DNA of 63,976 bases, the filler included, from Chrysochromulina tobinii (taxonomy: Eukaryota): NCBI GenBank assembly GCA_001275005.1. It is 9 parts of 9 records of this genome, joined end to end, with 100 filler letters (N's around TTAATTAATTAA, not from the genome) between each part and the next. Parts side by side here need not be neighbours in the genome. Positions count along the whole stretch, not along the records: positions 38,437 to 52,789 come from JWZX01000147.1; 8 more parts are not named here. The stretch is one strand, 5' to 3'. Below, in pieces: positions 29,335-63,976 of this stretch. Below the pieces are notes generated by a model that was given only the letters and a program-made list of their open reading frames with translations, was not told the origin of the DNA and searched no databases. Each line of letters begins with the position of its first letter. Positions within the stretch are counted from its first letter, which is position 1. The position numbers and the translations under genes were made by a program.

Positions 29335-30854
29335 TGTTAGACTCAGAGAAAATGTGTACGAGAGTGAACGCGTTGGCGGTGAAGTACCGTAGTCAATGAC
29401 CGTAGTACCTCCGAGCCGTCGCGCCGTAACGGCTCCCACCCTTACATTGTAACGGGGCGTCTTTATAACGCAACGCGCCGCCCGACCGCGGACCGTACGG
29501 TAGCGCACTACGTGCACGCCGCGCCGAAGGCGCAAGAGGGGAAAAGTGTCTCTACTTCGTCCGAACGCGGCACTAGTGTGTGTAGAGTATCGCACGGCCC
29601 GATGTCGTTTCAGTAACGCACGGTAGGGACCGGTAGGGTTTTGTGGATTCAAGCAGGCACTCGACCTCTTCAGTCCGACGCCGTGCGCTCCGACCGCACG
29701 CGCATCGACGTGGCATCGGTGGTTAGTCCGTTCCTCCGCAAGCTCCCTCGTCGCCGTCATGTCCACACCTGACGACGATAGCACGCTATCCGACACCATC
29801 ATCGACAAGCTCGCACCAACCACCGCAGACGGTACTCCTCTCGTTTGGTCAAGCGACAATGAAGCCCACCTCGATGGTCTCCTCTTTGAGGTCGGCAAGT
29901 TCTACAAGCGCAAGGGCCTCTTCCAGGCCTTCTTCAAGAACCACGCCGCCGTCCTCTCCAACGGCAAGCTCGCCGTGGACGCCCTCGAAAGTGCGTACAT
30001 CATGTCTGAGAAGATCAAGGACAGCTACAGCTTCGAGAAGCCTTGCCCACCAACAGCCCAGCGCGTGGCCAACTACGACGCCGCCACGCTTACCGTCGGC
30101 TCGCCCCTCCACGGCAAGAAAGCGGTACCGAAGAACCTCACCGAGATTCCCGCCGAACTCAAGGCCACCACCGTCCTGTCCGAGCACGCCGTTGAGGCGG
30201 AGGACAGCAGGCTGCTCACGTCGCTCACGCACACGTTCGGCAAGTCGATCTCGTCCGATGAGTTGATCGACGCCGCCGACGGGAGCGGCTACAAGCTCCT
30301 CGAGCTCCTCCGCGCCCGCGCCAAGAGCGCCAACACCAAGGACAAAGCGCTCGTCGCCGCCCAGTATGCCCGCATCATCCGCGACGGCGTTCCCCACGGC
30401 ACCGAGCTCAAGCTTCAGTCCCTCAAGGACTACATCAAGGAGTACAAGGCCGTCAAGCGCAACGTGCCGGAACTCTCCCGCCAGACCGACGCAGCCGAGG
30501 TCGACATGATCGACCTTATCGCCGTTAAAGACCCGTCGGTCCGCGAGATCTACGACATCAAGCGGACGGCGACGCCGCCGACCAACCTCGACTCCGCGGT
30601 GGGCCTGCTCTCCTCCATCCTCCGTGGGCGCGCGCGCTGCGAGGAGATCGACGAAGTCAATGCGGCCACCGCGTCTCCCGCCAAGAGCCTCGGCCTCGTC
30701 GCCAACCGCATCGCCCCGAACCAGGACAAGGCGCTCCAGCAGCTCCTCTCCACCATCGGCACGTCGGACGGGCGCCTCTCCGCCCTCATGTCCACGCTCC
30801 AGGCCGTGGCCGACCCCGCCAAGACCAAGGCCGGCGAGGACAAGGACAAGAAGC
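29335..30854 (+). mobile_element. Possible LTR-retrotransposon 5' end with gag-like ORF 29759-30854 (truncated)
   Basis: TGTTAG start 5 nt after the DUS stop; intronless ORF with different, C-rich codon usage (DGTPLVW..N.AHLDGLLFEVG...HAAVLSNGKLAVD) that I recall resembling N-termini of haptophyte copia-type polyproteins; contig breaks inside it. No PBS, second LTR or pol is visible. Confidence 0.45.
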
Positions 30855-37401: not shown

Positions 37402-38336
37402 TTAATCCCACGCCATTACCCACCCTCCGCCGTCATTCTTCCAGTAGGCCACGCCAGTCTCGTCGCAATCACTCAAGGCAAGACCATGCTCAGGCATCAG
37501 CCAGCTCACCATGCGCATGTAGGCCATGTAGTTCTCTCTAGGTGGCAGCGTCGGCAGGTCCGATCTCCAGTTGACGGCCACCAAGCGGCCAAGATGATCG
37601 ACTGCGGCGCCGCCGCTGCCTCCGTTGTGCAGCACGACCGATGCATGCAACAGCCCGTGGCTCTTGGCCGCCAAGGTGAGCGCTTGGGGCGCGAAGAGCG
37701 TGACTTCCCCCGCGGGTGAGAACCATCCGAAGACGGTGATCAGGTCTGCATTGACCTGGAGCGCGTCGGGATCTCCGAGCTGGAGCCCGCAAGGGAGCGG
37801 CGAGCTCGCCCCAGCGAGGCTGGCCATCGCTGGATACTTCGCGACGACCGAGTAGTCCATCCTGAAGCCTTGGAAGACGTCAGGCGTGAGCTCGAGGCGG
37901 CCGCAGATGCGAAGCACGGCCAGATCAAGCATTTGAATCATGCTGAGGGGTGCATGGGGACTCTGCGACTTTTCCTGCAGCGTGGCGAGGGGGGTGACGA
38001 GCTCGGCCCACCACATCCATCGTGAGGGCTGATCATCCGCTTCCCACATCCCAATCGCCAGGATCAGCGGCGCCGCATCGGACGTCCAGTCGATGGCTGC
38101 GGGATATCCGAACTTGGTCCAGATCGGTTCGAGGTAGTGCGGGTTACCCTGTGTAAAGTCGTGTGTCAAGTCCTGTGTACAGGCGACTGGATCGACGAAG
38201 AGGTGGGCCACGGTGAGCACCTGGTTCCGAGGCGCACCCGCACCGGCGTCGATGATGGTGCCGGATCCGAGCTCGAGGAGCCGGCACGTGGCGCGGTCGA
38301 GGAGGCCAATGCGCACGCTCGCCCGCTTCACCCCCT
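37402..38336 (-). CDS. Trypsin-like serine peptidase domain, 5'-partial
   Basis: LGSGTII, catalytic triad motifs LTVAH, DLAVLRI, HNGGSGG, then GRLVAV. Confidence 0.8.
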
Positions 38337-38436: not shown

Positions 38437-38949
38437 CGCCGGCTTGATGACGAAGCGCGCCGCGTCGTAGAGGGTGACGGTGCCGGGTGTCCTTTGCTTG
38501 CCACTCTTGTCGGCCCACCCCTCGGGCTTGCATCGCCGACAAATGTGCGAGCACACGCGCTGCAGCTGTGCGCCAGTGATGGCCCGTTTGGCAGTCTCCG
38601 CGATGGTGCAGCCGCCGCGCTGAGCACCGTGCAGGTCGGCAAAGTCCTCGGCGGCCGGCGGCCTGACGTGGACAAAGCTGCTCGCATAAAAACCTTTGCG
38701 CCACTCGTCGATTGTAATGCAGCCATCCGAGTCGAGGTCGAGCTCGCCCATCAGGGTTGCGAAAACCACGTCGTCGTAGCCTTGCTTTTGCAATGCGCTC
38801 TTCAACTCATCGCAAGAGATGGTCTGATCGCTGTCGACGTCGATCTCCTTGAAGATCCTCGTCGGGTCTTGCCACTGGAGCGTCTCCGGCGTGCGCACCT
38901 CGACCCCATCGTCAGGATTTGGCGCCACCTTCGTGACGGAGCCGCCCAT
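38437..38949 (-). CDS. EF-hand pair protein, 3'-partial; possible N-myristoylation
   Basis: DVDSDQTISCDEL and DLDSDGCITIDEW are canonical EF loops; starts MGGSVT. Confidence 0.85.
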
Positions 38950-39276
38950 CCTCGAGTGAAGGAAGGTCCTGTACACTGAACAGCACTGTGCTTGTTCCCA
39001 GTGAAATTAAGAAGCAGGGTTTCGTCAATGGATCTGCGTCGGACGTCGCCGACGTCACGGCCGACATTATGTTGTAATAACCCGTACCGGGGTCGTTCGA
39101 CATTCACAGGTTCTGACCATTTCTGCTTCTGTTCACACACGCTCACTTTCGACTTGGTTTGGGGTCGCCAGATTCACCCGAGGAACTGTGCTTCACATGA
39201 AACGGGGAGCGTTGCACATCGCGCGTGAACCCGTGAAGATCTCATCTGAGTTCCTTTGGCTAATATTTCTACATTT

Positions 39277-42080
39277 TCAGAAGTTGGCGTCGCAGAGCGC
39301 TTCGAGCCAAGGCGCGCTCTCGCCATGACGGATGCCTCGCACCTCGCGCAGCAGCCGTCGTATGAGCACATCCTCGTGCATTTGGAGCGCAAAGTACGCG
39401 GTCCAGCCGTGCCGATCGCCGGGGTGTGTGAAGAACTGGTCGGGTCGCATCGCCGGCGGCGCACCCTCTCCCAACCGAGGCCCACCGGCTCGGCGCACGA
39501 TTTCCTCAAACCACGCGTCGTCCTGAGCGCCACCCTCGCCCGCGTGGACGCTCGCGTTGCGCGCCGCGTCGTCGTGGCGGAGCGCGCCATGCTGGGCGCA
39601 TGCTGTTCGGAGCAGACGGATGTCGTCAGCGACCGTTGGATCCGTCGATGGCGCCGTGCTGGGCGCCCGGGGCGGCGCCTGCCCGGCCGCCTGCCCGGCC
39701 ACCTCGGACCGCCCAGCACGGCGCGTGTGCTTCGTGTGTGCATGCGGAGGCGAGGCCGCCGCACACAGCGCCGCCCGGACACGGTTGCAGCCGGCGGCAC
39801 GGCCGGTGCGCTGAAGGACGCTCGGAGAGCGCGGTCGCGCCGTGAAGACGTTTCCGGCGGCGTCGGTGGGCACCACCCCCGCCAGGGCGGCGCAGCCGGC
39901 GGTGGCACACGAGCGTGCGATGCAGCAGGCGACGCAGCTGCCGGCGCCGTGTCGGGCGCGCGGTGCGTCGAGTCGTCGGCGCCGTGTCGGGCGCGCGGTG
40001 AGCAAGGAGCTTCGTGAAGAAGCGTCGGATGATGGGAAGGGGAAGGCGCCTGCATGCAAGTGCTCACCACGGCGCCATGGCGATGGGAAGAGGTCAACGG
40101 CCGCCGGGCACGGTGCACCTGCTCGGCACGGCGCGCACCTGAAGGCGGGCTCGAAGGCGGCGCACGCGTCCGGGGTGGAGGTGGCGTTCTGGACGGGAAC
40201 CAGCGCAGAGCACAGGACCGGCTGCGCAACGCCCTCCCAATCAAACGCCCGGCGCAAGTCGGCTTCACGCTCGTCGTCGCGCCGTCGTGGGCGCAGCCGT
40301 ACAATCTGCGACACGCGCCCAAGCCGACCGGTCCACGTACCTGTGGGGAGCGCGCGCGCCGTGCTGAGCACTTGCATGCGCACGTGAGGGACTGTGACAC
40401 GCGCCCGAGCCGACCGGTCCACGTACCTGTGGGGAGAGCGAGCGCCGTGCTGAGCACTTGCATGCGCACGCGAGCACTGACACGTGCCCGAGCCGACCGA
40501 CCCGCTTACCTGGAACCGCTGCCCTCACCGCCGTGTCGACAAGCAGCACCTCCGGCGGCAGCATCAGGCCCGTGTCGACCAGCTGCACGTCAAACCGAGC
40601 AAAATGCGAGCGCATCAGGCAATGCGTAGGCATCGACCAGCCGTCCATATCGGGGAACTCTGCTCGGTAGCGCGCGTTGCAATTGCGTGGGCATGCCAGC
40701 CGGACCGGCGTCATCGCTCCGCCGCTCGCGCCGCCGCTTGTTGCGCCGCCGCTTGCTGCGCCGCCGCTTGCGCCGCCGCTTGCGCCGCCGCTTGTTGCGC
40801 CAGCCACGTTCGTCGGCGCCCGCATGGTCTTCAGAACCGGCCAGAGCGCGCGCGGCACGAGCAGCAGCACATCATCCTCACTCACGATCGTCTGCGGGCT
40901 GAGCCTCGCCGCCATTGTCGCCAATCGGCCCCCATCGGCGACCGGTACCTTGAAGACTTGATCGGTGCGCACCTAATGAGGGAGGCAATCATACTGATGA
41001 GCCAGGCAATCAGCCTTCGGCCACCGGTAACTTGGAGACTTGATCGGTGCGCACCTTGAGCATCGCGTCGTAAATGTACGGCGCGCCCTCATCCTCGTGC
41101 TCGGCCCGGCGCGCACCACCACGCTCGGCGCGGCGCGCCTCGTACTGCTCGATGAGCTCGACGCAATCTGCCCAACGGCCAAATTGGGCAGTCGAGGGCA
41201 GCCCGCAACTAATGGGCTCCGGCACCGTGCGCAGGCGCACTCCGAGAGGGCGCAGGCCGGTGAGCGCCGTGCCGAGCAGCTCCGCGTGCGCCGCGGGCGC
41301 CTCCCACGGCCCCGCCGCCTGCCGCTGCTTGGTGGATCGCCAGCTAAAAGACTCGCGCCATTGACTTGGTGGGAAGAGATCCGACGCATCTGTGTAGCGG
41401 TGCGAGCGCGCGGCGGCGCCGTAGGGCGAGTCCTCGGGCCCGGTCGAGAGCACGACGAAGGCGTCGAGGCCCGGCTCGGCGCGCGCGCCGTGGGTGCGCC
41501 CGAGCACATGCTGCTCGATACTCCTCCACACGGTCGGGTGCACGAGACTGCGCGGCATGCCCGCGATGCATACGGCGACGCGCGCTGCCCGAGCCGAGGT
41601 TGGCGCGGGCACGGGCGGCGGCGGTGGCCGTCGCTGATGGCGCTGCTGCACCTGGAGCCACGGGAAGTGCGACGCGTTGCCGATGCGCGGCCGAGGCTGC
41701 CGACGAAAGTGTGGCCGCTCGTGGCTGCCTCGGAGCGGCTCCGGCATCAGGCAGTGCTCTGCGCACGGCGGCGCGAGCAACACGCCGGCCACGCAACCGC
41801 TAGCTGGGTGGGCTCGATGCAGTGGCAGGTGCATCTTCATGCAGCATCGCGACGCGATGGGCGGCGACGCCACGGGCAAATACGGCGCGTTGCACACGGC
41901 CGTCACATACGTCCACGCGAGGCAGCCGAGCGTGGCTGCGCAGAGCTCGCAGCACTCGTCTGCGGTCGACACGGGCTCACACGGGCCAAGTTGCGCGGTT
42001 GGCCGTAGCCAGCTGCCGTCGGGATCGCGCGCCGTCGGCGTCAACCACGAGGCGTTGGATGTGTGCGAACAGGCCTCCAT
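39277..42080 (-). CDS. PAN/apple-like domain + putative glycosyltransferase-like domain + Cys-rich C-terminus
   Basis: Exons 42080-41055, 40972-40510, 40340-39277. TADECCELCAATLGCLAWTY..CCMK (PAN); RVAVCIAG.PR, DAFVVL, QF..W..C, YDAMLKVRTD (GT-like). Confidence 0.65.
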
Positions 42081-45000
42081 GGCATGAAATACATGTTCTC
42101 TTCTGTACGGCCGTTCATGTGTGAACGTTAACACGACACACGTGTAAACCTCAACCTGAAAAACTTTGGATCTAATTTCTTACTGCACATATATCTATGC
42201 ATCTAAGGGATAACCCTGTAGCTCCCTGTATGAATGCACATCATGATGTTGAGCACAGAGGGCTTCTGCAGCTGGAGGTAAAAACTATAGCGGTGGTCGG
42301 CAGGGCGCCGCGGCTCCTCGTGTGCCCTCCACTTCTAAGCCGCGCGCACTGAGATCTTCAGAAGCGCGGCGGCGGCGGCCCAGTCGCCGGCCTGGCCACG
42401 GCGGTGGCTCCCGGCCGAGGCGAGGCGTAACCGCCGTAACCACCCCCCGGGGGTGGTGTGTCCATGCCGCCCGGCGCTGGATACCACGGCGGCTGCGGCG
42501 GCTGCGGCGGCTGCGGCGGCGGCGGCGGCGGCGGCGCGTATCCATGCGAGGCGCGGCCGGCCGCGGAGGCAGAGGCAGTGCACGCGCGAGGCGACTTGGG
42601 AGGGGTGCCCGGGGCGGCGCCCGGGGCGGCGCCCGCCCGAGGCGGTGGCGGCCGTCGCTGCGGCGAGGCGAGAGCGACCTGCCGATCGGCGAGGAGGAGC
42701 GATGCGAGGTGCACGAATGAGGCAGGCAATCAGCATGCAATCAGAGATCATCAGAGCGACCTACCTGGAGTGACTCGAGCTCCTGCGCGAGCTGCCCCAC
42801 CTCATGGAGCGCCACCTCGCGCTGCGAGGTCACTCGCTCCGCCGCGAGCTGCTGCGAGCTCCGCTGCATCTCGGCGTGATCTCGCTCCTCCTTGAGCACC
42901 GCGTACGCCCTCCGGATCTCGGCGAGATCGCGCTTGGCGGCGACGAGCGCCGCCTTGGCGGCCTCCTCTCGCCGCCTCGCCTCGTCGGCTGCCTCCTTGG
43001 CCTGCGCGAGCGCCTGCCCCGCACCCTCCTTCTCCTGTCGTATTTGGGTCGCCTGCCGCTTTTCAGCCTTGAGTCGCTGTGCGGTCGCCTGGTGCGCAGC
43101 CGTCTGTTCCCTGAGCTCCTCGCGCACCTGATGAGGGAGGCGATCAGAGGCCATCAGAGGTGATAAGAGGCGATCAGAGGCGATAAGAGGGCATCAAAGG
43201 TCGAGAGCTTCACACGCACAGCCGCGAGCGCCTTGGCGAGCTTGCGCGACTCGCGATGCGATCCCATGAGCTCATCCGCCTCCGCCTCGGACACGTCCGC
43301 CGGCCGGCCGAGAGCGACGAGCGCCCACCGGTGCAACGCGCGCGCACACCTGTGGGGAGAGCGCGCCGTGGTGAGCACTTGCATGCATACGACGAGCGCC
43401 CGCAGGTGCGACGCGCGCGCGCACCGGTCGCGACGGATCAGAGGCAATCAGAGGCAATTAGAGGACAACTAGAGGCAATTAGAGGCCAATTAGAGGACAA
43501 TTAGATGACAATTAGAGGCAATCCGAGGCAATCAGAGCGCGCGCGCACCGGTCGCGACGGACGCCACAGCGGAGGAGATGTTCGAGACGGGCGGCGCCCG
43601 CAAGCCTTCGGGCCTGCTTGCCAGCGTCGGCATGGGCGAGCACCTGTGAGGGGTTCGTCAACGGCACTCAGAGAGAGGCACGCAATCAGAGAGAGGCATG
43701 CCGAAAGGCGAGCACCTCGCCGCGCTCGAGCGCCGTCTCGGTCATCTCGAGGGCCTTGCGCGCGTGCGCCTCGGCGGCATCCGCGCGCGCGCTCTCGGCG
43801 TCCTTGTCCGTCTTGAGCTTCTCCATCGCCGCGCGGTGCAGCCGCGCGCGCTCGAGCGCGGCTGCTTCCCGAGCGGCGGCGTCCTTGCGATCGGCCTTGA
43901 GCTCGGCGATCTCGCGGAGCAGCGTCGAGCGCTCCTGTGGGGAATGGAGGGGGGGGGCGCTGTGGTGAGCACCTGCATGCAAGGGCAGGGCTCGGCGATC
44001 TCGCGGAGCAGCGTCGAGCGCTCATCACAGCGCGCCGTTGGGGACGTCGCTGCTTCGCGTTGCCTCGAGCGCTCATCACAGCGCACCTTTTGTGACGTCG
44101 CCGCCTCGCGTTGCTTCGCCTTCTCGCGCTCGATGGCCGCCTCGGCGTCGGTCTTGCCCGCCTTGAGCGCCTCGCGCGCCTCGCGCAGGCTGCGTGCCAA
44201 TCCGAGGCAATTAGAGGCAATTAGAGGCAATTAATAGAGGCCATCATCAGAGGCCATCATCAGAGGCCATCATCAGAGGCCATCATCAGAGGCCATCATC
44301 AGAGGCCATCATCAGAGGCCATCAGAGGCCATCAGAGGCCTTCAGAGGCCTTCAGAGGCCTTCAGAGGCACTTGGAGGCACTCACCTGCGTGCCAATCCG
44401 TCGCGCTCGGCCTGCAGCGTCGCCACCGTCTTGCGCAGCGACCCCTCCTCGAGCGTGCCCGACACGGCGCGCTGCGCCTCGGCCTGGGACGTGGCGAGGG
44501 AGGCCGCGAGGGCCGTGCGCTCCTCGCGAAGCGTCGCGAGGCCCTTCTTGAGCGCCTTCTCGCGCTCGGTCGCCGCGTCGCGCTCGTACCGGAGACGTTT
44601 CGATTCCTCGAGCAGCTCCTGCATGCAATGAGGGAGGCCATCAGAGGCGCACTCAGAGGGGCGCGCGCTCAGGCGCACTCAGGCGCACTCAGGCGCGCTC
44701 AGGCGCCTTCAGGCGCGCTCAGGCGCGCTCAGGCGCCTTCAGGCCCTCCATGAGTCGATCGAGACGGAATCGAGATCGAATCGAGATCGAATCGAGATCG
44801 AATCCGAGGGTTTCGTCGCGCACCTTGGCACCGAGCAGCCGGGCGGTTTCGCGCCACGCCCAGAGCACACGGAGGCACGAGCCGCCCCCAAATGGAGAGA
44901 GCCACACGACGCGCTGGAGCTCGAGCAGCCGTGCGGTGCGACGCCCGGCGGCCTCGACGGTCGTGGCCTTTAAGCCGCCGGCGCCGGCGCCGCCACCGTT

Positions 45001-48000
45001 TGCCATCGCGGCGGCAAAGGCGCTGTTGGCGGCGGCGAAGGCGGTGGCGCCCCCGGGCTGAGCGCCGTACTGAGCGCTCACGGCACTCGCGCTCGAGAGC
45101 GTCGTGCTGAGCGCTTGGCGTTCGGGCACCGGCTGCAGCGCGAGCGCCGTGCCGAGCGCGTGGTTCGGCGGCGGCGGCAGCGACGCGCGCGTCGACGGCG
45201 GCGCACGCGGCGGCGGCGAGAGCGAGGGCGAGGTGACGGGCGGCTTGTCGCGCTCGTCGCGGCGCTCCTGTGCCGTGTGGAGGGTGTGGAGGGTGTGGAG
45301 GGTCCGTCGGAAGGGGCAATTGGGCTCCGGCGCTGTGGTGAGCACTCGCATGCAAGGGAAGGTCATCAGTGGCAATCAACGTACCTGGAGGGTGCGTCGG
45401 AAAGGGAAGTTGGGCTCGGGCCCACTCGAGGCGTAATAGACCCATCGACGGAGCGCCTCCCCCGCCACACAGAGCCAGGAGGCGGTGAGGCACGCGTCCA
45501 ACCGGCGCGCCGCCGCGAGCAGCTCCGACTTGCTCAGTTGCTCCTCTAGAGAGGGTACCTCGGCAAGCACCTGATGACGAGGGAGGCCATCGAGGGTGTG
45601 AATTGAGGCCATCATCAGAGGCCATCATCAGAGGCCGATTCAGATACCATCTCCCGAGAGCGCATCTCCCGAGATCGCACTTCCCTGGCCCTCAGCTTAA
45701 GGGAGATCGAGGGCACTCAAGGGAGATCGAAGGAGATCGAAGGAGATAGAGGGAGATCATGGGAGATCAGGGGAGATCGCACCTCCTTGGCATCCCTCAG
45801 CTCGCGCCGTGCCGCGAGCGCCTCCGCCGCCTTGGCCTTCGCGTCCTCCCGAGCGCCCTCCGCCTCCCGCGCCGCCCCCTCGAGCTGCTCGCGGAGTGCG
45901 GCTTCGCGTGCTGCCGCGGCCGCGCGCGTCGCTTCGTGTGCACGATCTCGCTCGAGCTCCTGCGCGGCGCTCGCGGCCTGAGGGCGCTGTGGTGAGCACT
46001 CGCATGCAAGGGCAGGTCATCAGTGGCCATCAACGTACCTGGAGGGTGCGCAGTCGCTCGTGCTCCGCCGCCGCCGCCTCCTCGAGCTCCGCCCGCAAAG
46101 CCGCACGCGCCTCCGCCGCCGTTGCCGCCTCCGCCGCCGCCGCGGACCAACGGTCGCGCATCTCGTCCACCTCGCGCTCGACCGCGCTCAACTCGGCGCT
46201 CAGCGCCGCGCGGACGGCGTCGGCGTCGGCGAGCGCCGAGTTGAGCGCGAGGTTGCCGAGATGGCGCTGCTCGTCGCGCTGGCGGAGCGCCGTACCGAGC
46301 GCCGACTGGAGCCGCTGCGCCTCCATTTGCGTGGCGCCGAGCTGTCGCTGCACCTCCCTCTGCATCGCCTGCAGCGCCGCGTGCTGCTCGAGCTGCTTCT
46401 GAGAGCCCTCCACGAGCGTCATCGAATCGAGCAGCTGGGCTCGCAGCTCCACCTGCAGCCCATCTGCGTGGATCCGAGCCTGCGCCACCTCCACCTCCAC
46501 CTCGCCGAGCGCCGTGCTGAGCACGCGCTGCGACGCCTCGAACGCGCGCACGTGCGCGCTCATCTCGGCGACCAGCTGGGCGCGCGCCGTCTCGGTGCGC
46601 TCCCGTTGGGCGCGCGCCTCGAAGGTGAGCGCCTCCATCGCCTCGTCCGCCGCCGCGCGCGCCGCCTGCGCCGTCTCGAGTGCGCGCGCGCCCGCCTGGA
46701 GTTGATGGCGGAGGTGGCCGAGCTCACCACGGCGCGGCAGCTCGGGGTGATTCTCGAGCCGCTCGAGCGACCTGTGGGGAGGTGAGGGCGCCGTGGTGAG
46801 CACTTGCATGCAGGTAGCTCGGGATGATTCTCGAGCCGCTCGAGCGACCTCCACGCGCGCTTTGCCGTTACGAGCCATCCCTGGCTCGTCATTTGGGTCG
46901 TCGTTTGGTCATGGCCGATTGGTGTGGCCTTGGGCCGCGGCCGATCAGCCGCCGCCGCTGCGCCCGCCGCAGCGCCGAAGCCACCTATCTTTGCGGCGGC
47001 GGGCGGGGCGGCGGGCGGGGCGGCGGGCGGGGCGGGGCCGTCTGCGCTGCTTCTCGCGCTTGCCGCGGGGGTGGGCGTCGTCTTGGGCACCAGGCGTTCC
47101 TCGAGGGCCGCGAGGCCCTCCGCGAGGTCGTCGAGCGCCGAGGCGGCCGCGTACCTAATGAGGAAGGCAATCATCCTAATGAGGGAGGCAATCATGATAA
47201 TGAGGGGGGCCATCGTCCTAATGAGGGGGGCATCCATCCTAATGAGGGAGGCACTCCTCCTAATGAATGCCTCACTCCTCCTAATGAATGCCTCACTCAT
47301 CCTAATGAGTGCGCCACTCAATCCTCCGCGAGGTCATCGAGCGCCGAGCCGGGCGCGTACCCGTCTTCGAGGCGCAGCGCCGCCGCGAGCTCGAGAGCAG
47401 CCGCATGTCGACGCACCTGTGGGGAGGCGATGGCGCCGTAGTGAGCACATGCGTGCTTGGAGAGGGCAGCCGCATGTCGACGCACCGCATGCCCCTGCTC
47501 GGCCGCCGCCTCCTTGGCCACCGCCAGATCGCCCTCGAGCTGCGATCTCGCGGTCTCGAGCTGCGATCTCGAGGCCGCCAGATCGCCCTCGAGCTGCGCC
47601 GCGCGCGCGCGTGCCTCTTCGACCTCGGCGGAGAGCGTGTCGATCGTCTGGTCCGCCACCAACAACGACTCCGCCACCTGATGAGGAAGGCAATCAGAGG
47701 TCATCAGAGAGGTCATCAGAGGTCATCAGAGGTCATCAACAACGACTCCGCCACCTCGGCCGCATCAGTCTCGGTCTTGAGACGCAGCTGCTCTTCGGCC
47801 GCACAGGCGGCCGCCTTGGCCGCCGCGACCTCCTTGGCAACACGCAGCCGCTCACGTAGCGCCGCCCCTTGCGTCTCCTCGGCCCCGATGGCAATCTGCA
47901 CCGGCGCGCGAGAGGGGAGGTGAGCAGCAGTCCAGATCACTCAGCGGTCACTCCGAGGTCACTCCGAGGTCACTCCGAGGTCACTCCGAGGTCACTCCCA

Positions 48001-51000
48001 GGTCACTCCGAGGTCACTCCGAGGTCACTCCGAGGTCACTCCCAGGTCACTCCGAGGTCACTCCGAGGGCACTCCGAGGTCACTCCCAGGTCACTCCGAG
48101 GTCACTCCGAGGGCACTCCGAGGTCACTCCCAGGTCACTCCGAGGTCACTCCGAGGTCACTCCGAGGTCACTCCGAGGTCACTCCGAGGTCACTCCGAGG
48201 TCACTCCGAGGTCACCCCGAGGTCATCAGAGGTCGCGAGCACACCTGCACCGCCGCGAGTGATGTGAGCAGTTGGTCGAGCGAGGGAGGGAGCGCCTCGT
48301 GCAGCGGCGGCAGCGGCGAGGTATGCGTGAGCGGCACGAGGCTCGCGTGCACCTGATGAGGGGGGCAATCATGAGTGTCATCAGATGCGGGAGGCTGACG
48401 AGGGAGGCTGATGAGGGAGGCAATCAGGCACGAGGCTCGCGTGCACCGTCCCAAGCAGCTCGCCGATCTCGAATAATTGGACTAATTGGGTCTCCTGCTC
48501 GAGCTCGAGCAGAGATTGCTGGAAGTGCCACTCGGACTCGGCCGCGCGCGCGAGCTCCATCTGCGCCTGCGCCTGCGCCTGCGCCAGCTGCGCCTCCGCC
48601 TGCGCCCTCGACAGCACCTCCGCCGCCGTCTCATACGAGAGGGGTTCTCCCCCGTGCATGGGAGCGTCATAGAGCGTCTCGTCGAGCAAGTGGAGCCCCT
48701 CCTCCCCCGCCTCGGCATGGGGCGACGCATGCAAGTGCCCACCACGGCGCGCGCGAGAGGGGAGCCCCTCCTCCCCCGCCTCGGCATGGGGCGACAGCGG
48801 CGGCTCGCGGTGCTCGCGACGGCGCGAGGCCAATGGGGGGGGGCGCCGTACCGGGCGCGTGCTGCGGCGACGGCGCGGGCGGCGGATGCGAAGGCAGCAG
48901 CTGCGGCAGCGGCGAGGGACCGTGCGTCGGGAGCTGTGCGGGTGCCCAGGACGGCGCCACGTGCGAGTCGCGCCGCAGCTGCGTGGCGCCCAGTACGGCG
49001 CCCTCGAGGCGCCTCTGCCGTTCGCGCTCCTCCATTTGAGTCGCCCTCGCCATGCGCGCCTCCGCCTTCGCGCGCTGCTCGGCCAACGCCTGGAGCTGCC
49101 CTTGGACGCTCGTGTGGAGCTGCCCTTGGACGCTCGTGTGGAACTGCCCTTGGACGGAGCGAGAGTGCACCTGGCCGGCGCGAGATTGCATCTGGCGCTC
49201 GTCCGCTGAGCGAGATTGCATCTGGCGCTCGTCCGCTGAGGCATCGGCGCGTGCGCCCATCAGCTGCGCCTGCGCACATTCAGCGTCCCGGCGGGCCGCC
49301 ACCGCCGAGTCCGACGCCGACGCTCGGAAGTCTCTCGGAAGTCTCTCGGAAGTCTCTCGGAAGTCTCTCGGAAGTCTCTCGGAAGTCTCTCGGAAGTCCG
49401 ACGCCGACGCCGAGAGAGTCTGAAGTCGCTCGGAAGTCTCTCGGAAGCGGGCCAGCGCCGCCTCCGTCTCCGGCGCACCCGCCGATGCGAAGTACGGGGG
49501 GGCGGAGGCGTGCGGCAGCGTCGAGTTGGGCGGAGGCGCGACCACCGAGAACTGTGCCGAAAGCGAGCACGCGGCACGGGGGGCGCCCGCCACGACGCCC
49601 GGCGCACCGCCCGCCACGACGCCCGGCGCGACGCCCTGTGAACGGTCCGTTGGCGAGGCCAGGTGTGAACGGCCCCCTGGCGAGGGCCGGTGTGAACGTG
49701 TGCCCGAGCTGCGAGGCGGCGACATGAACTCGTCGGTGGGCGTCGTGGTGGGCGCGGCGCTGCCTGCTGGCGGTTCCGGGGGTGAGGTGTTCGGGGGGGA
49801 GGTGTTCGGGTAGGTGGGTTGGCGTGGCTCATAGCACTGAGGCGCGGGCTGTGGCGAAGGGGGGAGCGCATCGACTTCATGCGGGACGCCGAGCCGCGCC
49901 TCTCTCCCCCTCATCGGCCCGCCGCCTCCTCCCACCCCAACGGCAGCCGCGCTACCCGCCAGCACGGCGCCAGCGGAGCCGCCCGCCACGATGCCCGCGC
50001 CCGAGGCCGCCAAGTTGCGCTCGACACAGCGCTCGGGCCCGCGCGCTGGCGACGAGGAGTTGACGAACCCCCGTTCGGGGTGGCAGGCAGGGACAATGCG
50101 AGCGCCCGCCGTGCTGCGCGTGGCCGACGGCGCCGTGCCGGGCGCGGTGCGCGCCGTGCCGGGCGCGGCGGCGCCCGCCTCCGCGCCAGTCGCGCGCATG
50201 GGGCGGCTCGGCTTCGGTTGTCGCGCCGCCGCCGGGTCGACGCACTGCGGGCGCTCCCAGTGGACCTCGGCCGCGTACCCGCCGCTCGTGCCGCAGCCGC
50301 CGCCCACTCCGATGACGGAGGGGGGCGCCCAGTTGGGCGCCCACGACGGCGCGGGCGCCAGGGCCGCTCCGCGCGCCAACGGCAGCCCATTCACAGGCTG
50401 ATTCACAGGCTGGTTCACCATATGGGCCGGCGCCGAGTTGAGCGCCGGCGCGAGTGAATGGAGAGTGGGCGGCTGGGCGAACCGGGGCGCCGAGTTGAGC
50501 GCCATCGAGCGTGCCGCGCTGGGCGCCGTCGTGGGCGCATCCTCCGGCGGCGAAGGCGGCGGCGACATGGGATTCGAACCGCACGGCTCGAACGGCGCTA
50601 CTTCCATGCCGTGCAGTAGTTCGGGCTTCCGATCGGGCGCTGTCGTGGGCTTCCGATCGGGCGCTGTCGTGGGCTTCCGATCGGGCGCTGTCGTGGGCTT
50701 CCGATCGAGCCACGCCTCCGACCAGCGTTCCACAGCTTGGCCCAGCAGAGCCTCGCGACGCTCCTCCGCGCGCTCCGCGAGGCGCCCACGACAGCGCTCC
50801 GCGTGCTCGGCGAGTCGGCGCTTCTCGGCCTGCCGCGCACCTGTGGGGAGAGGGGCGTGGTCGCGCCGTGGTGAGCACTTGCATGCGGCGCGCGGCGTAC
50901 GCGTGCTCGGCCGACCGCGCCGTCGTGGGCGACGCACCGTGCTTGAGACGTTCCGCCTCCGCCGCGGATGTCTGCGTGTCGTAAAGTTGGGGCGGCGGCG

Positions 51001-51765
51001 CCCGCATGAGCTCTTCACAGCCCTCGGCTGCGCCGTGCATCGCCGCTTCCGCCGCGATCACGACGCCGTAGACGGCCGCAAAGAGATCCGAATCGTTCAT
51101 CGCGCCGTGGTGAGCACTTGCATGCGCAAAGAGATCCGAATCGTTCATCGCGCCGTGGTGAGCACTTGCATGCGCAAAGAGATCCGAATCGTCCCTCGCC
51201 GCCGCCGCCGCCTCGGACTGCGGACTTGGCGGCCGGTCGAGGGTCACCCCCTGTGGGAAATGGAGCAAGGGCAGCACCCTGCAGGCGGGCACGCTGCAGG
51301 CGCCCACGGCAGCGCTGCAGACGCCCGCAGACGCGGCCGGCTCCGCGGATGACGACGACCCCGCGTGTGCATCGAGGGCGTTGGTCCTTGACGAACCTTG
51401 ACGAACCTTGACGGACCTTGTCGGCGACCCCGCGTGTGCATCGAGGGCGTGAGGGAAATGGGAGGAGGCGTCGGCATGCGATGTGGCGGCGGGCGCGCTG
51501 TGGTGGGCATGCGCGCTGTGATGGGCATGCGCGCTGTGGTGGGCATGGGAGGAGGTGTCGGCATGAGATGTGGCGGCGGGCAGAGCGGCGGCGCTGTGGT
51601 GGGCATACGCGCTGTGGTGGACATGCGCGCTGTGGTGGGCATGAGCGCTGTGGTGGGCATGCGCGCTGTGGCGAGCATGGGCGCTGCGCCATAGTTCGAG
51701 CTCTGCCTGCGCGGCTGCCAAGCTGTCCCTGGCAGTGAGCAACTCCTGTGGCTGCTGCTGCCGCA

Positions 51766-51800
<35 letters not shown>

Positions 51801-52481
51801 TGCTGCTGCTGCTGCTGCTGCTGGACAGCGCCTGCGAGCGGTGCCGCCGTGGTGGGCATGTGCGCCGTGGTGGGCATGTGCGCCGTGGTGGGCATGTGCG
51901 CCGTGGTGGGCATGGGAGTACTCCGCGGCCGCGACGGCGTCGCGCCGCTCAGCCACGCCGCACGCGCCATGGCCGCCGGACCGAGAGGATCTGGACTCGA
52001 CACGTGGTTGCCTAATTTGGTATCCAAACTCGTTCCAACGACGGGGGCCGTTGCAACGGAGGTAGCTGCCACGTGGCAGCCTGACGTAACGGAGGTAGCT
52101 GCCACGTGGCAGCCGGACGTAACGGAGGTAGCTGCCACGTGGCAGCCTGACTTAGCTGGCAGCGCTGGCGGCAGCACGGGCGGCGATGGCGAGGAGAAGT
52201 GTGGCTCGGCCCGGGCGAGGACGACGCGCGCTGCATCGAGCAACGCCGCGGCGCTTGAGAGCGAAGGTGACTCGCGCGCCGGCGCGCCGCCGTGCTCGGC
52301 GGCGTGCACGTGGGCAAACGCCTGTGCGAATGCATGCACGTCGGGCACGCCGCTGCTGCCGGTGCCGCCGCCGCGCGCACGGCCGCCGCGCTGCTGCCGC
52401 CGCTGCTGCCGTTGATGGCGCTCCTCGTCCTGCGCTCCTCGTCCTGGGGAGGAGAGGGCGCCGTAGTGAGCACTTGCATGC
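40052..52481. repeat. Dispersed cassette A family GCATGCAAGTGCTCACCACGGCGC, about 14 copies, both orientations
   Basis: Copies near 40052(+), 40357, 40443, 43364, 43957, 45329, 45983, 46787, 47433, 48727(+), 50863, 51101, 51149, 52457; all in this one contig. Confidence 0.9.
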
Positions 52482-52737
52482 TGCTGCCGTTGATGGCGCT
52501 CCTCGTCCTGCGCCTGAAGCCAGCGCTGCTGCTGCTCGAGCTGCTGAAGCTGCTGCTGCTGTTGTAGCTGCTGCTGAAGCTGCTGCTGCTCGTACGCGTG
52601 CTCGTCCTCCTCCTCACCCTTGAAGAGATTCGATCTCATCGGCTGAGATGCGATCTCCTCCTCACCCTCGGGGAGCCGATGGCGGCGCCGTGAGCTCAGG
52701 CTGGGAGGTGGCGGAGGCGGCAGGTGCGGCGGTAGGT

Positions 52738-52789
<52 letters not shown>
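42358..52789 (-). CDS. Very large low-complexity/coiled-coil protein, 5'-partial, about 18 exons
   Basis: Predicted introns 50841-50937, 48353-48446, 47896-48244, 47678-47754, 47417-47485, 47155-47360, 46772-46848, 45978-46038, 45571-45782, 45268-45384, 44619-44823, 44190-44385, 43935-44086, 43644-43715, 43350-43548, 43128-43219, 42679-42764, all GT-AG and phase-compatible. One unexplained frame change near the G-run at 48835-48843. Confidence 0.75.
47937..48230 (-). repeat. Intronic 11-mer array (AGTGACCTCGG)n
   Basis: About 26 units of ccgaggtcact on +, inside intron 47896-48244. Confidence 0.9.
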
Positions 52790-53231: not shown

Positions 53232-54524
53232 TCAGGTCATATCCGGCAGGTCGTCGTCGTCGCTGTCGTCGGGTGCGTCACGTCTCGCCTGCTCCGCTGC
53301 CGCGACGTCCTTCGCGAGCATCTCCTTCCAGCCTTTGTTCACCGCCTCGCGGAGGAGTAGGATCGCGGGCACCGCACGCGGGTACTTCAACCCTTGTCCC
53401 AGCTTGAGGTTGGCGGTGAACATTTGGAGCACCTTATCGGTCTTTGGGCTCACGTTCCCGGCGGCACTTATAAGAGGGCGCATAAGTAATGTATCAGATC
53501 CGCCGATTACGAGATGATAGAGTAGGAATTGACTCGCCCCAGCAAAGCCAATGCGAGTAGCGTCGGAACCATCGTGCAACCACACGAGGACCTTGGGGCT
53601 CGTGCCCTCAGCGAGCGCCTTGGTACCACCGCAGTCTGGCAGGAAATCCTTTGTTGGATCAACACGCCCTGCACTGACCTCCTCTGGCCTCCACTCCTGC
53701 GAGATGAACTCCTCCACGTCGGCGTGGCTTGAGGCGAGCGAATACGAGAGCCCCGAGGCGAGCTCAGTCTCGAAGTCCGTGACGACACTCGGCGTCGGCG
53801 GCGCGACGGGCGCTGGGGCGGGCGTCAGCTTCGGGCGTTTTGCAGCTCCCTGCTGTGCACGTGAAAGAGATTCACGAACCTGCAGCACCAGGTGGTCACC
53901 GTCCCTAGCACCTCGAGATGAGGACGCTAGTACATTCTGGTAGCCCAACATCTTCAGCCAATTCTCCGCCTTCAGCCTGCAAATTGCCATTGGGCAACGC
54001 AACGATTGCAGGGTTGTATGCCGAGCCTACCTTTCCCAAGCCGCCGGTTCCGACCCCAGATGCCGCAGCACGTCCTGCAGCAAGGGCAGCAAGCCTGGGA
54101 GGCACCTGACAAGGTCTTGAGCTTCCGTTATGTTCGCCGCGGAAAGAGTGCGGATGGATTGCAACTGCGACTTTAGGGGCCCTGTGAGGCTATCGTAGCC
54201 AAAGTAGCCACCCTGACTTTTCCCGCTCCCTCCGGGCAGTCTCAGGAAGCCTGATTCGTCGCGGTTCGCAGGGTCAAGCATGTACTCGGCGAAGGTCCTG
54301 GCGCTCGCCGGTGGGCATCGGCACGACCATACTCCCACATTCGCATCGAGGTAGAGTGCTGGTGTCGATGTTGGCTCCAGGCTGACAGAATACGGTGCCG
54401 CGATGATGTGAAGGCTGAGCGCCAATGCTGATGGTGTCGTCTTCTGGAGTGCTGCAATAGCTTTCTCATTCCTTTGGTTGCTCGCAGCCGCATCGTCGAA
54501 GCGCTCTGCGTAGTCAGCGAACAT
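53232..54524 (-). CDS. Hypothetical protein, two exons
   Basis: Exons 54524-54031 and 53976-53232; a 54-nt GT-AG intron removes the single in-frame stop. Lower GC and weak codon bias; no family recognised. Confidence 0.6.
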
Positions 54525-54578
54525 CGCGTGAGTCGAGAGGAAAAAATCCGGCCCTTTTGCACATTTTTTTCCACACAA

Positions 54579-54657
54579 GGGTTTTTCCAAATCTCCCAAA
54601 TTCTCTCTGGAGATTTCAAATCTCCATGGAGATTTTGGGAGATTTAGGGGAAAACCC
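54579..54657. repeat. AT-rich imperfect inverted repeat between divergent genes
   Basis: tggagattt-c-aaatctcca core, aaatctcccaaa/tttgggagattt arms, gggttttt/aaaaccc ends. Confidence 0.85.
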
Positions 54658-54850
54658 GGTAAACAGCTATGCACGCAACGCGAAATCAAAATATGACGGG
54701 CGCGTGCAAGCGCACGGTCAGCATGTTAGCCTTCGATCGCCATCACGAAACAGACAGGAAACTGGCTATGACCGCTACGCGAAAACGCAAAGTTAGTCGG
54801 GAAAAAAACGGAATTCAGGCGGGCGCGCGGGCCCAAAGCGCCCGTCCAGC

Positions 54851-56148: not shown

Positions 56149-56261
56149 CATGCCCTAAATCAGAGGACGGCGCGTGCGACACTGACGTGCAATCCCTCGG
56201 CAAGCCCACGGAGAGGGCGCACGCGGCGATCCCACAGTCGATGATGCTCATGTGAACAAAA
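56149..56261 (+). repeat. Identical copy of the 3' end of the GT25 gene (=57741-57853)
   Basis: 113-nt exact match including the stop codon. Confidence 0.9.
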
Positions 56262-56365: not shown

Positions 56366-57847
56366 ATGTGGTCACGGCCGAGTGAGACAGCCGAGGACGT
56401 TCCTCGGTATCGCGATTCGCCACCGCGCCAGCAGCCTCACGACGACGACGGTTACCGCCGGGATGAATATCACCACACCGAAGGGCCCTCAACCTCGTCT
56501 CACCGCGCGTACGAGGGCGACAGGAGCAGAGGCGACAGGAGCAGAGGCGACAGCAGCCGAGCGCACAGCAGCCGAGCGCACAGCAGCCGTAACAGCAAGC
56601 ATGCGATGAGGAGCATGCAGAAGAAGACGGAGACGCTGAAGCGCGAGATTATCAAACTCGATGGCGAGTTGCAAGAGCTCGAGTCCAAGCGCAAGAAGGC
56701 AAAGCACGCCGCTCATAAAGCAGCGGAGGAGGTAAAGGTCGAGTTCTTGCGCAGCGCCGCCGTCATCCAGAGGCAGCTGGATGCCGACGCCGACGAAACG
56801 GAGCAGATAAAGTCTGCAGTCGCGCGTGACGAGCGTGAGCTCGAGGAGCTGCGCCGAAGGCTGCGTGAGCAGAACGAGCAGCAAGCGGAGCACCGCGCGC
56901 AGCTCGAGCGAGCGACGCAGGACAAGCTCGCAGATCTGCAGGGTGAAATAAGGGTGCTACGAGACTGGAGGCCACCGCAAAGTTCGAGTGTGCCCACCTC
57001 CAGCAAACCCGCGTTCGACCCAGGCTCCTCACATGTGAGGAGCCTCGATGAGCAACCCGAGCACGGTGTGAACACAGTGCTCGGGTTGCTCATCAACCTC
57101 GACCGACGTGCCGACCGGCTTGCCAAGATACGCGCGCTGAGGCTGCCCTTGGAGTGGGAGCGGCTTGAGGCGGTCGATGGACGCACGCTTTCGTGGGCGA
57201 AGCTTGGCCAGGATCAAGTTTTGCATCCGGACGCCCTCACCGAAGCGCAGTGGGCCGAGGCGCATTCGCTGCCTACGATTTGCCGCGAGACGGGCTCATT
57301 TTCACCGCATCTCACCTATGGCGCGGTCGGCTGCGCGCTCTCGCACCGCAAAGCATGGCAAGCCCTGCTCGATAGCCCGCCGTACAGAGAGTGCGCTCTG
57401 ATCATGGAGGACGACTTGTCAGGGGTCGCGCGTCAATTTGATTTGCAGCTCGGTCGGCTCCTGAGCGAGCTGCCGAACACATGGCACATTGTCTTCCTGG
57501 GGTACCACGAGTCGTCGGGGAGGCTGCTCCCCGTCAAGCAATCGCCACGCCATTTCGAGCAGCCTCCTGCAATGTGCTTAACCGGCTTGTACGCGTATCT
57601 GCTCCACCGACGGGGAGCACAGGCACTGCTGCAGCCGCAAGCCGTCTTCCCACTTCGTCATCAGGTGGATGTCGCGGTGAGCCTTTACCCTTGGCCTGCG
57701 GGCAGCCGCTTCATCCTCGACCCGCAGGCGGTGCTCGCGGCATGCCCTAAATCAGAGGACGGCGCGTGCGACACTGACGTGCAATCCCTCGGCAAGCCCA
57801 CGGAGAGGGCGCACGCGGCGATCCCACAGTCGATGATGCTCATGTGA
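56366..57847 (+). CDS. Glycosyltransferase family 25 protein with N-terminal coiled coil
   Basis: LINLDRRADRL, LEAVDG, GAVGCALSH..W, LIMEDD, WHIVFLG, AYLLHRRGAQALL. Confidence 0.9.
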   Translation: MWSRPSETAEDVPRYRDSPPRQQPHDDDGYRRDEYHHTEGPSTSSHRAYEGDRSRGDRSRGDSSRAHSSRAHSSRNSKHAMRSMQKKTETLKREIIKLDGELQELESKRKKAKHAAHKAAEEVKVEFLRSAAVIQRQLDADADETEQIKSAVARDERELEELRRRLREQNEQQAEHRAQLERATQDKLADLQGEIRVLRDWRPPQSSSVPTSSKPAFDPGSSHVRSLDEQPEHGVNTVLGLLINLDRRADRLAKIRALRLPLEWERLEAVDGRTLSWAKLGQDQVLHPDALTEAQWAEAHSLPTICRETGSFSPHLTYGAVGCALSHRKAWQALLDSPPYRECALIMEDDLSGVARQFDLQLGRLLSELPNTWHIVFLGYHESSGRLLPVKQSPRHFEQPPAMCLTGLYAYLLHRRGAQALLQPQAVFPLRHQVDVAVSLYPWPAGSRFILDPQAVLAACPKSEDGACDTDVQSLGKPTERAHAAIPQSMMLM

Positions 57848-58172
57848 ACAAAATTGATTAAGGGCTGCACCGGCCGTGCGACGAATGCCGTCAACGAATA
57901 TTTATGTCGCTGTGTGTGGGGGTCGGGGGTCGTGTGCGGGTGTGCGGCGTGTTGTGGGGTTTACTATGATCTGGACCGTGTCTCGTCCGTGTGTGTTGAG
58001 TTTGGTGAGTCACCGCGGCAACGTGTCGCCGCAGGGCTGTACCGTGCGCGTGTGGGGACCTCTCGGCGTCTCGGGTGTGCGTCTCGACTCTCGAGCGTGA
58101 CGAACCATTGAAGGTGTGTGAACATGACAATGCAAGGTCCTTAGGGAGAGGCAGAAAGCGCTCTATTCCCAA

Positions 58173-63894: not shown

Positions 63895-63976
63895 TGATCT
63901 GCGCAGATGAAAGAGCAAAGCTCGAGGCGCGGAAGCACGTGAGCGCGCTAGTCTTGCTTATGTCCCTATGCACGAC

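What the first reader, a model, noticed from the sequence alone, without database searches (positions are those of the whole stretch)
42679..50937. Candidate intron-generating system: variable-length exon duplication plus a stereotyped 3'-splice cassette
Seen: most of the 17 predicted introns in this gene, and most introns in five other contigs, begin with a copy of the downstream exon start or end with a copy of the upstream exon end (7-45 nt, 0 to several mismatches). Many finish in one of two shared cassettes: A GCATGCAAGTGCTCACCACGGCGC..CCCCACAG or B TGATTGCCTCCCTCATYAG. Known: introner elements usually have short fixed TSDs and often TIRs; tandem duplication of AG|GT and double-strand-break repair are separate proposed routes to intron gain. 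Inference: here a staggered-break or templated insertion supplies branch point and AG, the duplicated host sequence supplies GT, and splicing restores the original reading frame. Duplicate divergence spans perfect to decayed, suggesting ongoing activity. I cannot tell from the window whether this has already been described in this lineage.
Basis: partly seen in the sequence, partly recalled or inferred. Interest (0 to 1): 0.92.

Follow-up and report, generated by a model that had tools for sequence, protein, structure and literature searches.

The report
New introns copied from neighbouring introns
In a freshwater alga of the Chrysochromulina group, many introns consist of a 12-46 base duplication of the gene's own sequence plus a short piece shared with other introns; those tested are spliced out, and some are present in one population and missing in another, likely because DNA-break repair copies splice signals from nearby introns, which would be a way to multiply introns without a known transposon.

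Summary
All 5 introns in the stretch laid against RNA are spliced at the predicted GT-AG ends. With 17 introns removed the gene reads as one frame, apart from a one-base assembly slip. Across 257 cassette-A sites from the window and metagenome loci, 177 are flanked by long direct repeats (controls 13 of 1475 and 102 of 800; median 26 nt). Exact empty sites exist in near-identical populations and in a close relative. The inserts are variable pieces of existing introns, not a fixed element. Both ends vary, copies resemble near neighbours far more than chance allows (39 of 190 sites), and some carry host sequence from a donor intron. Unspliceable inserts are mostly in frame (14 of 17), while spliceable ones are random (35 of 108). 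Best reading: staggered breaks repaired by microhomology-primed copying from a nearby intron, then filtered by selection. The enzyme, and whether the template is DNA or RNA, are not shown. It fails the standard introner definition, and my literature searches found no description of it.

The parts
42358..52789 (-). Host gene: long, low-complexity, coiled-coil-like protein, 5' end cut by the contig end; 17 introns; one frame apart from a one-base slip at 48835
   Evidence: ORFs after splicing; table 4 (DNA run X1 lacks one base at 48835)
50841..50937 (-). Intron, cassette A, decayed duplication
   Evidence: not shown by RNA
48353..48446 (-). Intron, cassette B, 21-nt perfect duplication
47896..48244 (-). 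Intron, long 10-mer array, 13-nt copy of upstream exon end (insert brings donor)
47678..47754 (-). Intron, cassette B, 20-nt perfect duplication
47417..47485 (-). Intron, cassette A, 25-nt duplication, 1 mismatch
47155..47360 (-). Intron, cassette B array, 39-nt duplication, 3 mismatches
46772..46848 (-). Intron, cassette A, 35-nt duplication, 1 mismatch
45960..46038 (-). Intron starting with the long form of the cassette (own donor, B-like units, A core); likely related to 45268-45384
45571..45782 (-). Intron, arrays plus B end, 6-nt junction overlap
45268..45384 (-). Intron with long-form cassette inside a 32-nt duplication; shares core variant and upstream bases with 45960-46038
44619..44823 (-). 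Intron, arrays plus B end
   Evidence: an RNA contig stops at 44617 with 84 other letters
44190..44385 (-). Intron, B array, 15-nt perfect copy of upstream exon end
   Evidence: RNA loose end at 44204 continues at about 44402
43935..44086 (-). Intron, cassette A with 34-nt internal duplication; spliced from an upstream GT
   Evidence: RNA joint in X19
43644..43715 (-). Intron, B-like filler, 11-nt duplication
   Evidence: RNA joint in X19 and loose end in X15
43350..43548 (-). Intron holding a B array and cassette A (nested events), 13-nt junction duplication
   Evidence: RNA joint in X15
43128..43219 (-). Intron, cassette B, decayed 15-nt duplication
   Evidence: RNA joints in X14 and X19, retained in X15
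42679..42764 (-). Intron, B filler; L039 has an extra 82-nt tandem unit here
   Evidence: RNA joint in X17, retained in X14
48692..48795 (+). Cassette-A core inserted antisense to the gene inside a perfect 35-nt duplication; 69 nt added, in frame, no splice signals
51075..51192 (-). Two tandem 48-nt units of duplication plus cassette-A core without an acceptor; read in frame (approximate ends)
52404..52513 (-). Cassette A in a 32-nt duplication, 78 nt added, read in frame

Best explanation
These introns are insertions made of a 12-46 nt duplication of host exon plus a piece of sequence shared with other introns, and they likely arise when a staggered DNA break is repaired by microhomology-primed copying from an existing, often nearby, intron. 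Inferred steps: two offset nicks leave single-stranded overhangs, and filling them gives the duplication. Before the ends are joined, one end pairs over a few bases with a cassette-bearing intron and copies 10-60 nt, usually from the acceptor back through the branch region. It then rejoins, again over a few matching bases. Repeated priming would give the 10-mer arrays of type B. Each new intron can serve as the next donor. Selection then keeps inserts that complete a GT-AG pair with the duplication, or that add a multiple of three bases. A polymerase-theta-type host pathway is my first guess for the enzyme. The template could be DNA or the gene's nascent RNA. Shown: anatomy, splicing, empty sites, local similarity, frame bias. 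Inferred: the break, the enzyme, the nature of the template.
For: Duplications: 177 of 257 sites against 13 of 1475 shuffled pairings and 102 of 800 random positions; 62 of 161 are perfect and 13 are more than 10% diverged. Splicing: 5 of 5. Five cassette-A introns in DHX37 (L014) sit inside conserved helicase motifs that splicing restores. Empty sites: L011 lacks an 81-nt insert (34-nt duplication plus 47-nt cassette) present in L073, and L046 lacks a 42-nt insert present in L098. P0281 and P0283 (98% identical to P0121) read through DHX37 intron 4. P0122 lacks introns 3, 4 and 5 and an in-frame core insert, yet translates cassette A elsewhere. Local donors: 39 of 190 sites have a neighbour within 5 kb more alike than in all 200 random draws, expected 1.9 (two of the 39 are one ortholog pair, and many are reciprocal). 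The new L073 insert is identical to the intron about 480 nt away. At L045, bases that are duplicated host exon at 10001 reappear as filler at 12535, with 5 matching bases at the junction; L091 and L092 show the same pattern. Filter: 14 of 17 unspliceable inserts are multiples of three (p 5e-5) against 35 of 108 spliceable ones. Five of 139 orientable sites are antisense, none with the acceptor layout. Templated, microhomology-primed, iterative insertions are the described mark of polymerase theta (PMC12426944, passages), and breaks with 3' overhangs give small tandem duplications (PMC8355091, passages).
Against: Generic repair should copy any nearby sequence. Among young repeat pairs with spacers, 135 have A or B fillers, 24 have other short arrays and only 59 have unique fillers, although loci were fetched by an A match. 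Unspliced and antisense core inserts show the preference is not only selection for splicing, and this is unexplained. Polymerase-theta insertions are generally under 25 bp and copy sequence flanking the break, whereas these are longer and donors lie up to several kb away. A coarse test showed little local excess in tail identity (0.67-0.69 against 0.66). Some copies share extensions with distant loci. The formal microhomology test had only 4 usable cases (mean 1.75 against 0.47 bases). Direct repeats also allow precise loss, so a single empty site does not fix the direction of change.
Confidence: 0.55

Rival explanations
1. A retroelement enzyme (non-LTR or Penelope-like reverse transcriptase with its endonuclease) makes the offset nicks and reverse-transcribes intron-containing RNA in trans, recognising the conserved core. 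The inserts would be truncated retro-copies of pre-mRNA or intron RNA.
For: Variable-length duplications, truncation and tandem units are typical of non-LTR and Penelope-like insertions (PMC9977147 and PMC8557442, passages). It would explain the preference for one template and a fairly narrow duplication size. Local similarity is flat with distance on the same strand (8 of 77, 9 of 79, 2 of 29, 3 of 20) and absent across strands (0 of 11), as expected if the gene's own transcript is the template.
Against: Both ends of the insert vary, and some inserts hold only the 5' or middle part. No poly(A) tail or shared extension beyond the acceptor was seen in 37 sites without a duplication. No reverse transcriptase, transposase or nuclease family was found in 134 ORFs near cassettes, though that is about 1% of a genome. 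The cassette does not fold better than shuffles (z -1.7 to +1.2).
Confidence: 0.25
2. A copy-and-paste single-strand DNA transposase (Replitron- or Helitron-like HUH enzyme) mobilises a minimal element around the palindrome at the start of the core, with fuzzy ends taken from the parent copy.
For: Replitron-1 insertions carry parent-derived flanking bases and variable duplications, and one Replitron locus was reported in Chrysochromulina tobinii (PMC10288648, section 9 and passages). The long form of the cassette holds a 12-bp perfect palindrome (seen in the sequence).
Against: There is no fixed end or terminal direct repeat. Tail-only (L098) and 12-nt core-only inserts exist. The paper calls those signatures non-canonical. 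B arrays are not explained.
Confidence: 0.08
3. Ordinary slippage and tandem duplication around old introns, with gene conversion making neighbours alike; no real gain of new intron positions.
For: The genome is rich in tandem repeats (102 of 800 random positions score 12 or more). Arrays and whole units do change copy number between populations.
Against: Empty sites occur in close and distant relatives at the exact positions. Introns lie inside conserved motifs. The filler is absent from the empty allele.
Confidence: 0.05
4. Assembly artefact.
For: Short-read contigs in a repeat-rich genome; one homopolymer slip was found at 48835.
Against: RNA joints at the predicted ends, unbroken DNA contigs and an independent ortholog.
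Confidence: 0.01

Closest known systems
Introners (Gozashti et al. 2022, 2025; PMC9860276, PMC12130899)
   Same: Related sequence in introns of unrelated genes; one splice site carried and one taken from the target; recent gains.
   Different: Similarity does not reach both intron ends; there is no fixed length, TIR or fixed-size duplication; duplications are 12-46 nt; donors are often neighbours. The 2025 table lists Chrysochromulina tobinii GCA_001275005.1 with 0 introner families. The marine Chrysochromulina sp. introner has a 4-bp duplication and carries the 5' site.
Intron gain by staggered double-strand-break repair in Daphnia (PMC4202315)
   Same: Direct repeat of the adjacent exon at the far end of the new intron; internal repeats; presence/absence in populations.
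   Different: Daphnia repeats are 4-12 bp and the filler source is mostly unknown. Here repeats are much longer, form about a third to a half of a short intron, and the filler is traceable to other introns.
Tandem genomic duplication of AG|GT (reviewed in PMC3443670)
   Same: A duplicated exon segment supplies a splice site, and splicing restores the coding sequence.
   Different: Only 4 of 161 sites take both sites from the middle of the duplication; nearly all have a filler that supplies the branch region.
Polymerase-theta templated insertions (PMC12426944)
   Same: Microhomology at junctions, local templates, iterative patchwork.
   Different: Usually under 25 bp, copied from sequence flanking the break and paired with deletion; no known preference for introns.
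Replitron-1 and Penelope-like or non-LTR insertions (PMC10288648, PMC8557442, PMC9977147)
   Same: Variable target duplications, parent-derived or truncated ends, tandem units.
   Different: No defined element ends and no coding partner found here.

Membership tests
Introner | Similar sequence in introns of non-paralogous genes | tested here: met
   257 core sites in loci with many unrelated Pfam families
Introner | Spliced out, restoring the coding sequence | tested here: met
   5 of 5 RNA joints; DHX37 motifs restored
Introner | Absent at the orthologous site in relatives | tested here: met
Introner | Similarity reaches both intron ends with consistent boundaries (criterion read) | tested here: not met
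   The 5' part is a site-specific duplication; filler before the core is 0-33 nt and tails are nearly all unique
Introner of DNA-transposon type | Fixed short target duplication and terminal inverted repeats | tested here: not met
   Duplications 12-46 nt, median 26; ends vary
Introner | Autonomous partner element | tested here: inconclusive
   None in 134 ORFs or viral contigs; whole genome not held
Break-repair intron gain (Daphnia type) | Direct repeat shared by intron end and adjacent exon above background | tested here: met
Break-repair intron gain (Daphnia type) | Repeat of 4-12 bp with unrelated filler | tested here: not met
   Longer repeats and shared filler
Tandem genomic duplication | Both splice sites from the duplicated segment, no foreign filler | tested here: not met
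   4 of 161 take both sites from mid-duplication, and these still hold a core
Polymerase-theta templated insertion | Template found near the break | tested here: met
   39 of 190 sites, but at 0.1-5 kb rather than immediately flanking
Polymerase-theta templated insertion | Microhomology at junctions | tested here: inconclusive
   Clear single cases; formal test n=4
Polymerase-theta templated insertion | Dependence on POLQ | not testable with these tools
   Needs a mutant
Non-LTR or Penelope-like retro-insertion | Variable-length target duplication | tested here: met
Non-LTR or Penelope-like retro-insertion | Fixed 3' end with 5' truncation only | tested here: not met
   5'-part and core-only inserts exist
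Replitron | Terminal direct repeats and one fixed end at an RG target | tested here: inconclusive
   No fixed end seen in listings; target rule not tested formally

The most novel reading that the evidence does not exclude
A self-propagating intron lineage with no transposon: host break repair, possibly using the gene's own nascent RNA, copies the branch-point and acceptor region of one intron into a staggered break nearby. Each new intron seeds the next, and thousands of introns accumulate in a genome that standard introner screens score as empty. The 10-mer-rich introns of other haptophytes (recalled, not tested) could be older products of the same process.
Probability: 0.45. Interest if true: 0.93.

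Novelty: new variant of a known kind. Interest (0 to 1): 0.84.

Why it matters
Where new introns come from is a long-standing open question. The current view is that only transposon-derived introners explain bursts of gain (PMC12130899), while break-repair gains lacked an identifiable source sequence (PMC4202315). Here the source, the target, the empty allele and the selective filter can all be read from sequence, in an alga that grows in culture. That makes the mechanism directly testable. It also shows a class of young introns that all-against-all introner screens are built to discard.

Tried and rejected
Thirteen loci were dropped before counting: 12 redundant or orthologous, and the viral L001. 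The first RNA lay at 92% likeness was swamped by repeat matches. Summed depth at cassette sites is high there but is not a copy number. Prokaryotic genomes hold no cassette-A match. One viral contig holds it at its very end, after a duplicated, array-bearing stretch that looks like algal DNA joined to a phage-like contig; it was not used. Rfam gave only sub-threshold matches. Folding gave no special structure. A GC-based test for genic against intergenic placement was uninformative (20 of 155 sites against 18% background below 60% GC). Opposite-strand pairs were too few (11) to separate RNA from DNA templates. Earlier scan notes concerned other genomes and other intron types. Junction duplications for introns in the window's other contigs, and a random GT-AG control for the 17 introns, were not computed.
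Full report
Setting. The window is nine contigs joined by spacers. A phosphatase-kinase gene in it has haptophyte best hits (Haptolina brevifila 72%), and a window protein falls in a 90% cluster with a Chrysochromulina parva protein. The host is therefore in or very near the C. parva / C. tobinii group; the exact species was not determined. No whole genome was held.

The observation. On the minus strand of contig 38437-52789 I placed 17 GT-AG introns. After removal there are two long overlapping frames, of 1341 and 1539 codons. They join if the G run at 48835 is one base shorter, as it is in DNA run X1. Eleven of 17 introns have a 9-39 nt copy of the adjacent exon at the junction. RNA contigs from four runs were laid on 42600-44250 at 99% likeness. 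They skip all five introns there with CT..AC ends: 42679-42764, 43128-43219, 43350-43548, 43644-43715 and 43935-44086. A loose end supports 44190-44385. One extra joint was a base off, and two contigs kept an intron, one of them while splicing its neighbour. These libraries may hold DNA or unspliced RNA. A DNA contig spans 42728-43930 unbroken, and an ortholog from another metagenome (L039, 77 mismatches in 3910 bases) shares the introns but differs in array length.

More than chance. A scan of metagenome contigs gave 135 stretches, kept as 129 loci. After dropping 13 loci, 257 cassette-A sites remained, window included. Of these, 177 have a flanking direct repeat scoring 12 or more, against 13 of 1475 shuffled pairings and 102 of 800 random positions. 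For the 161 single sites, length is 12-46 nt, median 26; 62 are perfect and 13 are more than 10% diverged. An unbiased search for repeat pairs with spacers found 83 with A, 79 with B and 172 others, many of them protein repeats or further 10-mer arrays.

Anatomy. Of the 161 sites, 108 have a donor at the start of the duplication and an acceptor at the end of the insert, and 25 are decayed forms of this. Seven have the donor in the insert and the acceptor at the end of the second copy, 4 take both from the middle of the duplication, and 17 have no usable sites. In 47 of the 108 the host already had AG before the donor; in 61 the insert must supply at least part of it. All layouts are pieces of one intron-like sequence of about 75 nt: donor, B-like units, conserved 23-nt core with a branch-point-like motif (consensus recalled), variable pyrimidine tail, acceptor. 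The tail is unique in nearly every copy. B fillers are arrays, mostly of period 10 (36 of 58), and occur in the same layouts.

Gains are recent. L073 has an 81-nt insert, a 34-nt duplication plus 47 nt of cassette, that the 98% identical L011 lacks exactly. L098 has a 42-nt insert, a duplication plus only the last bases of the tail, that L046 lacks. In DHX37 (L014), five cassette-A introns interrupt conserved motifs, and removing them restores gap-free alignment at the junctions. P0122, 93% identical and evidently called from unspliced DNA because it translates cassette A, reads through positions 3, 4 and 5 and lacks an eight-residue in-frame core insert. P0281 and P0283, 98% identical, keep intron 5 but read through position 4. 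P0124 has none of the five. These protein readings assume ORF-type gene calls; their DNA was not seen. Long direct repeats also permit precise loss, so direction is inferred from the duplication and from absence in more distant relatives.

Where the filler comes from. Of 190 sites with a neighbour within 5 kb, 39 have a neighbour more alike than in all 200 random draws (expected 1.9). Two of these are one ortholog pair and many are reciprocal, so the number of independent pairs is about half. The new L073 insert is identical to the intron about 480 nt downstream. At L045, sequence that is duplicated host exon at 10001 is filler at 12535, joined over five matching bases; L091 and L092 behave alike. 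In L014 several copies, including an antisense one, share a private extension or core variant. Donors lie upstream or downstream. Some copies share extensions with other loci, so distant donors exist too. A coarser test on tail identity showed little local excess.

The filter. Spliceable inserts are a multiple of three in 35 of 108 cases, as chance gives; unspliceable ones in 14 of 17 (p 5e-5). Five of 139 orientable sites are antisense, none with the acceptor layout, among them the perfect 69-nt insert at 48692-48795. So insertion does not need splice signals, but survival in exons does, unless the frame is kept.

Mechanism. Long variable duplication, few-base matches at junctions, local templates in both orientations and iterated short units fit repair of a staggered break with templated synthesis (PMC12426944 and PMC8355091, passages). 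I put this at 0.55, with a polymerase-theta-type enzyme as first guess. What it does not explain is the strong preference for intron ends as templates. A reverse transcriptase acting on the gene's own RNA would explain that and the flat distance profile, and I give it 0.25. No such enzyme gene was found in 134 nearby ORFs, a small sample. A Replitron-like enzyme is a weaker rival.

What is known. It works like an introner but fails the membership criterion that similarity reach both intron ends. The 2025 survey lists C. tobinii with no introner family and Emiliania huxleyi with three small ones, one noted as co-opting the 5' site with terminal direct repeats. The marine Chrysochromulina introner of the 2022 paper has a 4-bp duplication. 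Daphnia break-repair introns have 4-12 bp repeats and mostly unknown sources. Ten searches found no description of this system.

What I read. Passages of 10.1101/2022.06.06.494994, PMC4202315, PMC3443670, PMC8469720, PMC8355091, PMC9977147, PMC8557442 and PMC12426944. Parts 1-2 of 7, passages and supplement rows of PMC12130899 (files 13 and 14 not searched). Supplement rows of PMC9860276 (file cut when stored; three cassette motifs not found in it). Section 9 and passages of PMC10288648. Part 1 of 5 of PMC11282704. The nuclear genome papers of C. tobinii, C. parva and E. huxleyi, and the dinoflagellate introner paper by Roy and colleagues, did not come up and were not read; they or their supplements may mention these repeats. 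That E. huxleyi introns are rich in 10-11 bp repeats is recalled, not checked.

Verdict. A real, recently active route of intron gain with readable donors. It is a new variant joining break repair, exon duplication and intron copying; the enzyme is open. Interest 0.84.

Noticed in passing
window 48835: One extra base in a G run relative to DNA run X1; it splits the host gene's frame and is probably an assembly slip.
   Followed up: yes
window 40030-40090 and 60549-60633: Further antisense inserts in other genes: a cassette-A core adding about 51 nt and a B array adding 69 nt, both in frame by eye.
   Followed up: partly
window 40340-40510 and 40935-41056: The neighbouring gene has a tandem pair of cassette-A units and a B intron with a 40-nt duplication.
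   Followed up: partly
L014 2433-2513 (DHX37 intron 5): A 12-nt piece of the core is inserted inside the duplicated part in most populations but not in P0276, a second, tiny insertion event.
   Followed up: partly
L127 323, L072 5269, L012 9006, window 43980: Duplications that start with GG or GA before a good acceptor; at 43980 RNA shows an upstream GT is used instead. Others untested; GC donors were called at 13 of 108 sites.
   Followed up: partly
loci L005, L014, L015, L046, L054, L059, L064, L070, L072: Long direct repeats also flank 9-12 nt arrays of other sequences than B, so the array-making process is wider than one motif.
   Followed up: partly
window 20449-23854: PP2C, cyclic-nucleotide-binding and kinase fusion gene with three B-like introns and only short junction overlaps, perhaps older gains; P0005 is a full-length ORF on a 17-kb contig, a hint of an intronless ortholog.
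   Followed up: partly
window 29759-30854, 37405-38334, 62704-63957, 53235-54725: Long ORFs without Pfam match that look like mobile-element proteins by eye.
   Followed up: no
L001 2750-3060: An IMG/VR phage-like contig ends in algal-looking DNA with a duplication, an array and cassette A; probably a chimeric contig.
   Followed up: no
window 56149-56260 and 57743-57852: The first 110 bases of contig 8 repeat the end of the glycosyltransferase gene, suggesting a tandem gene copy.
   Followed up: no
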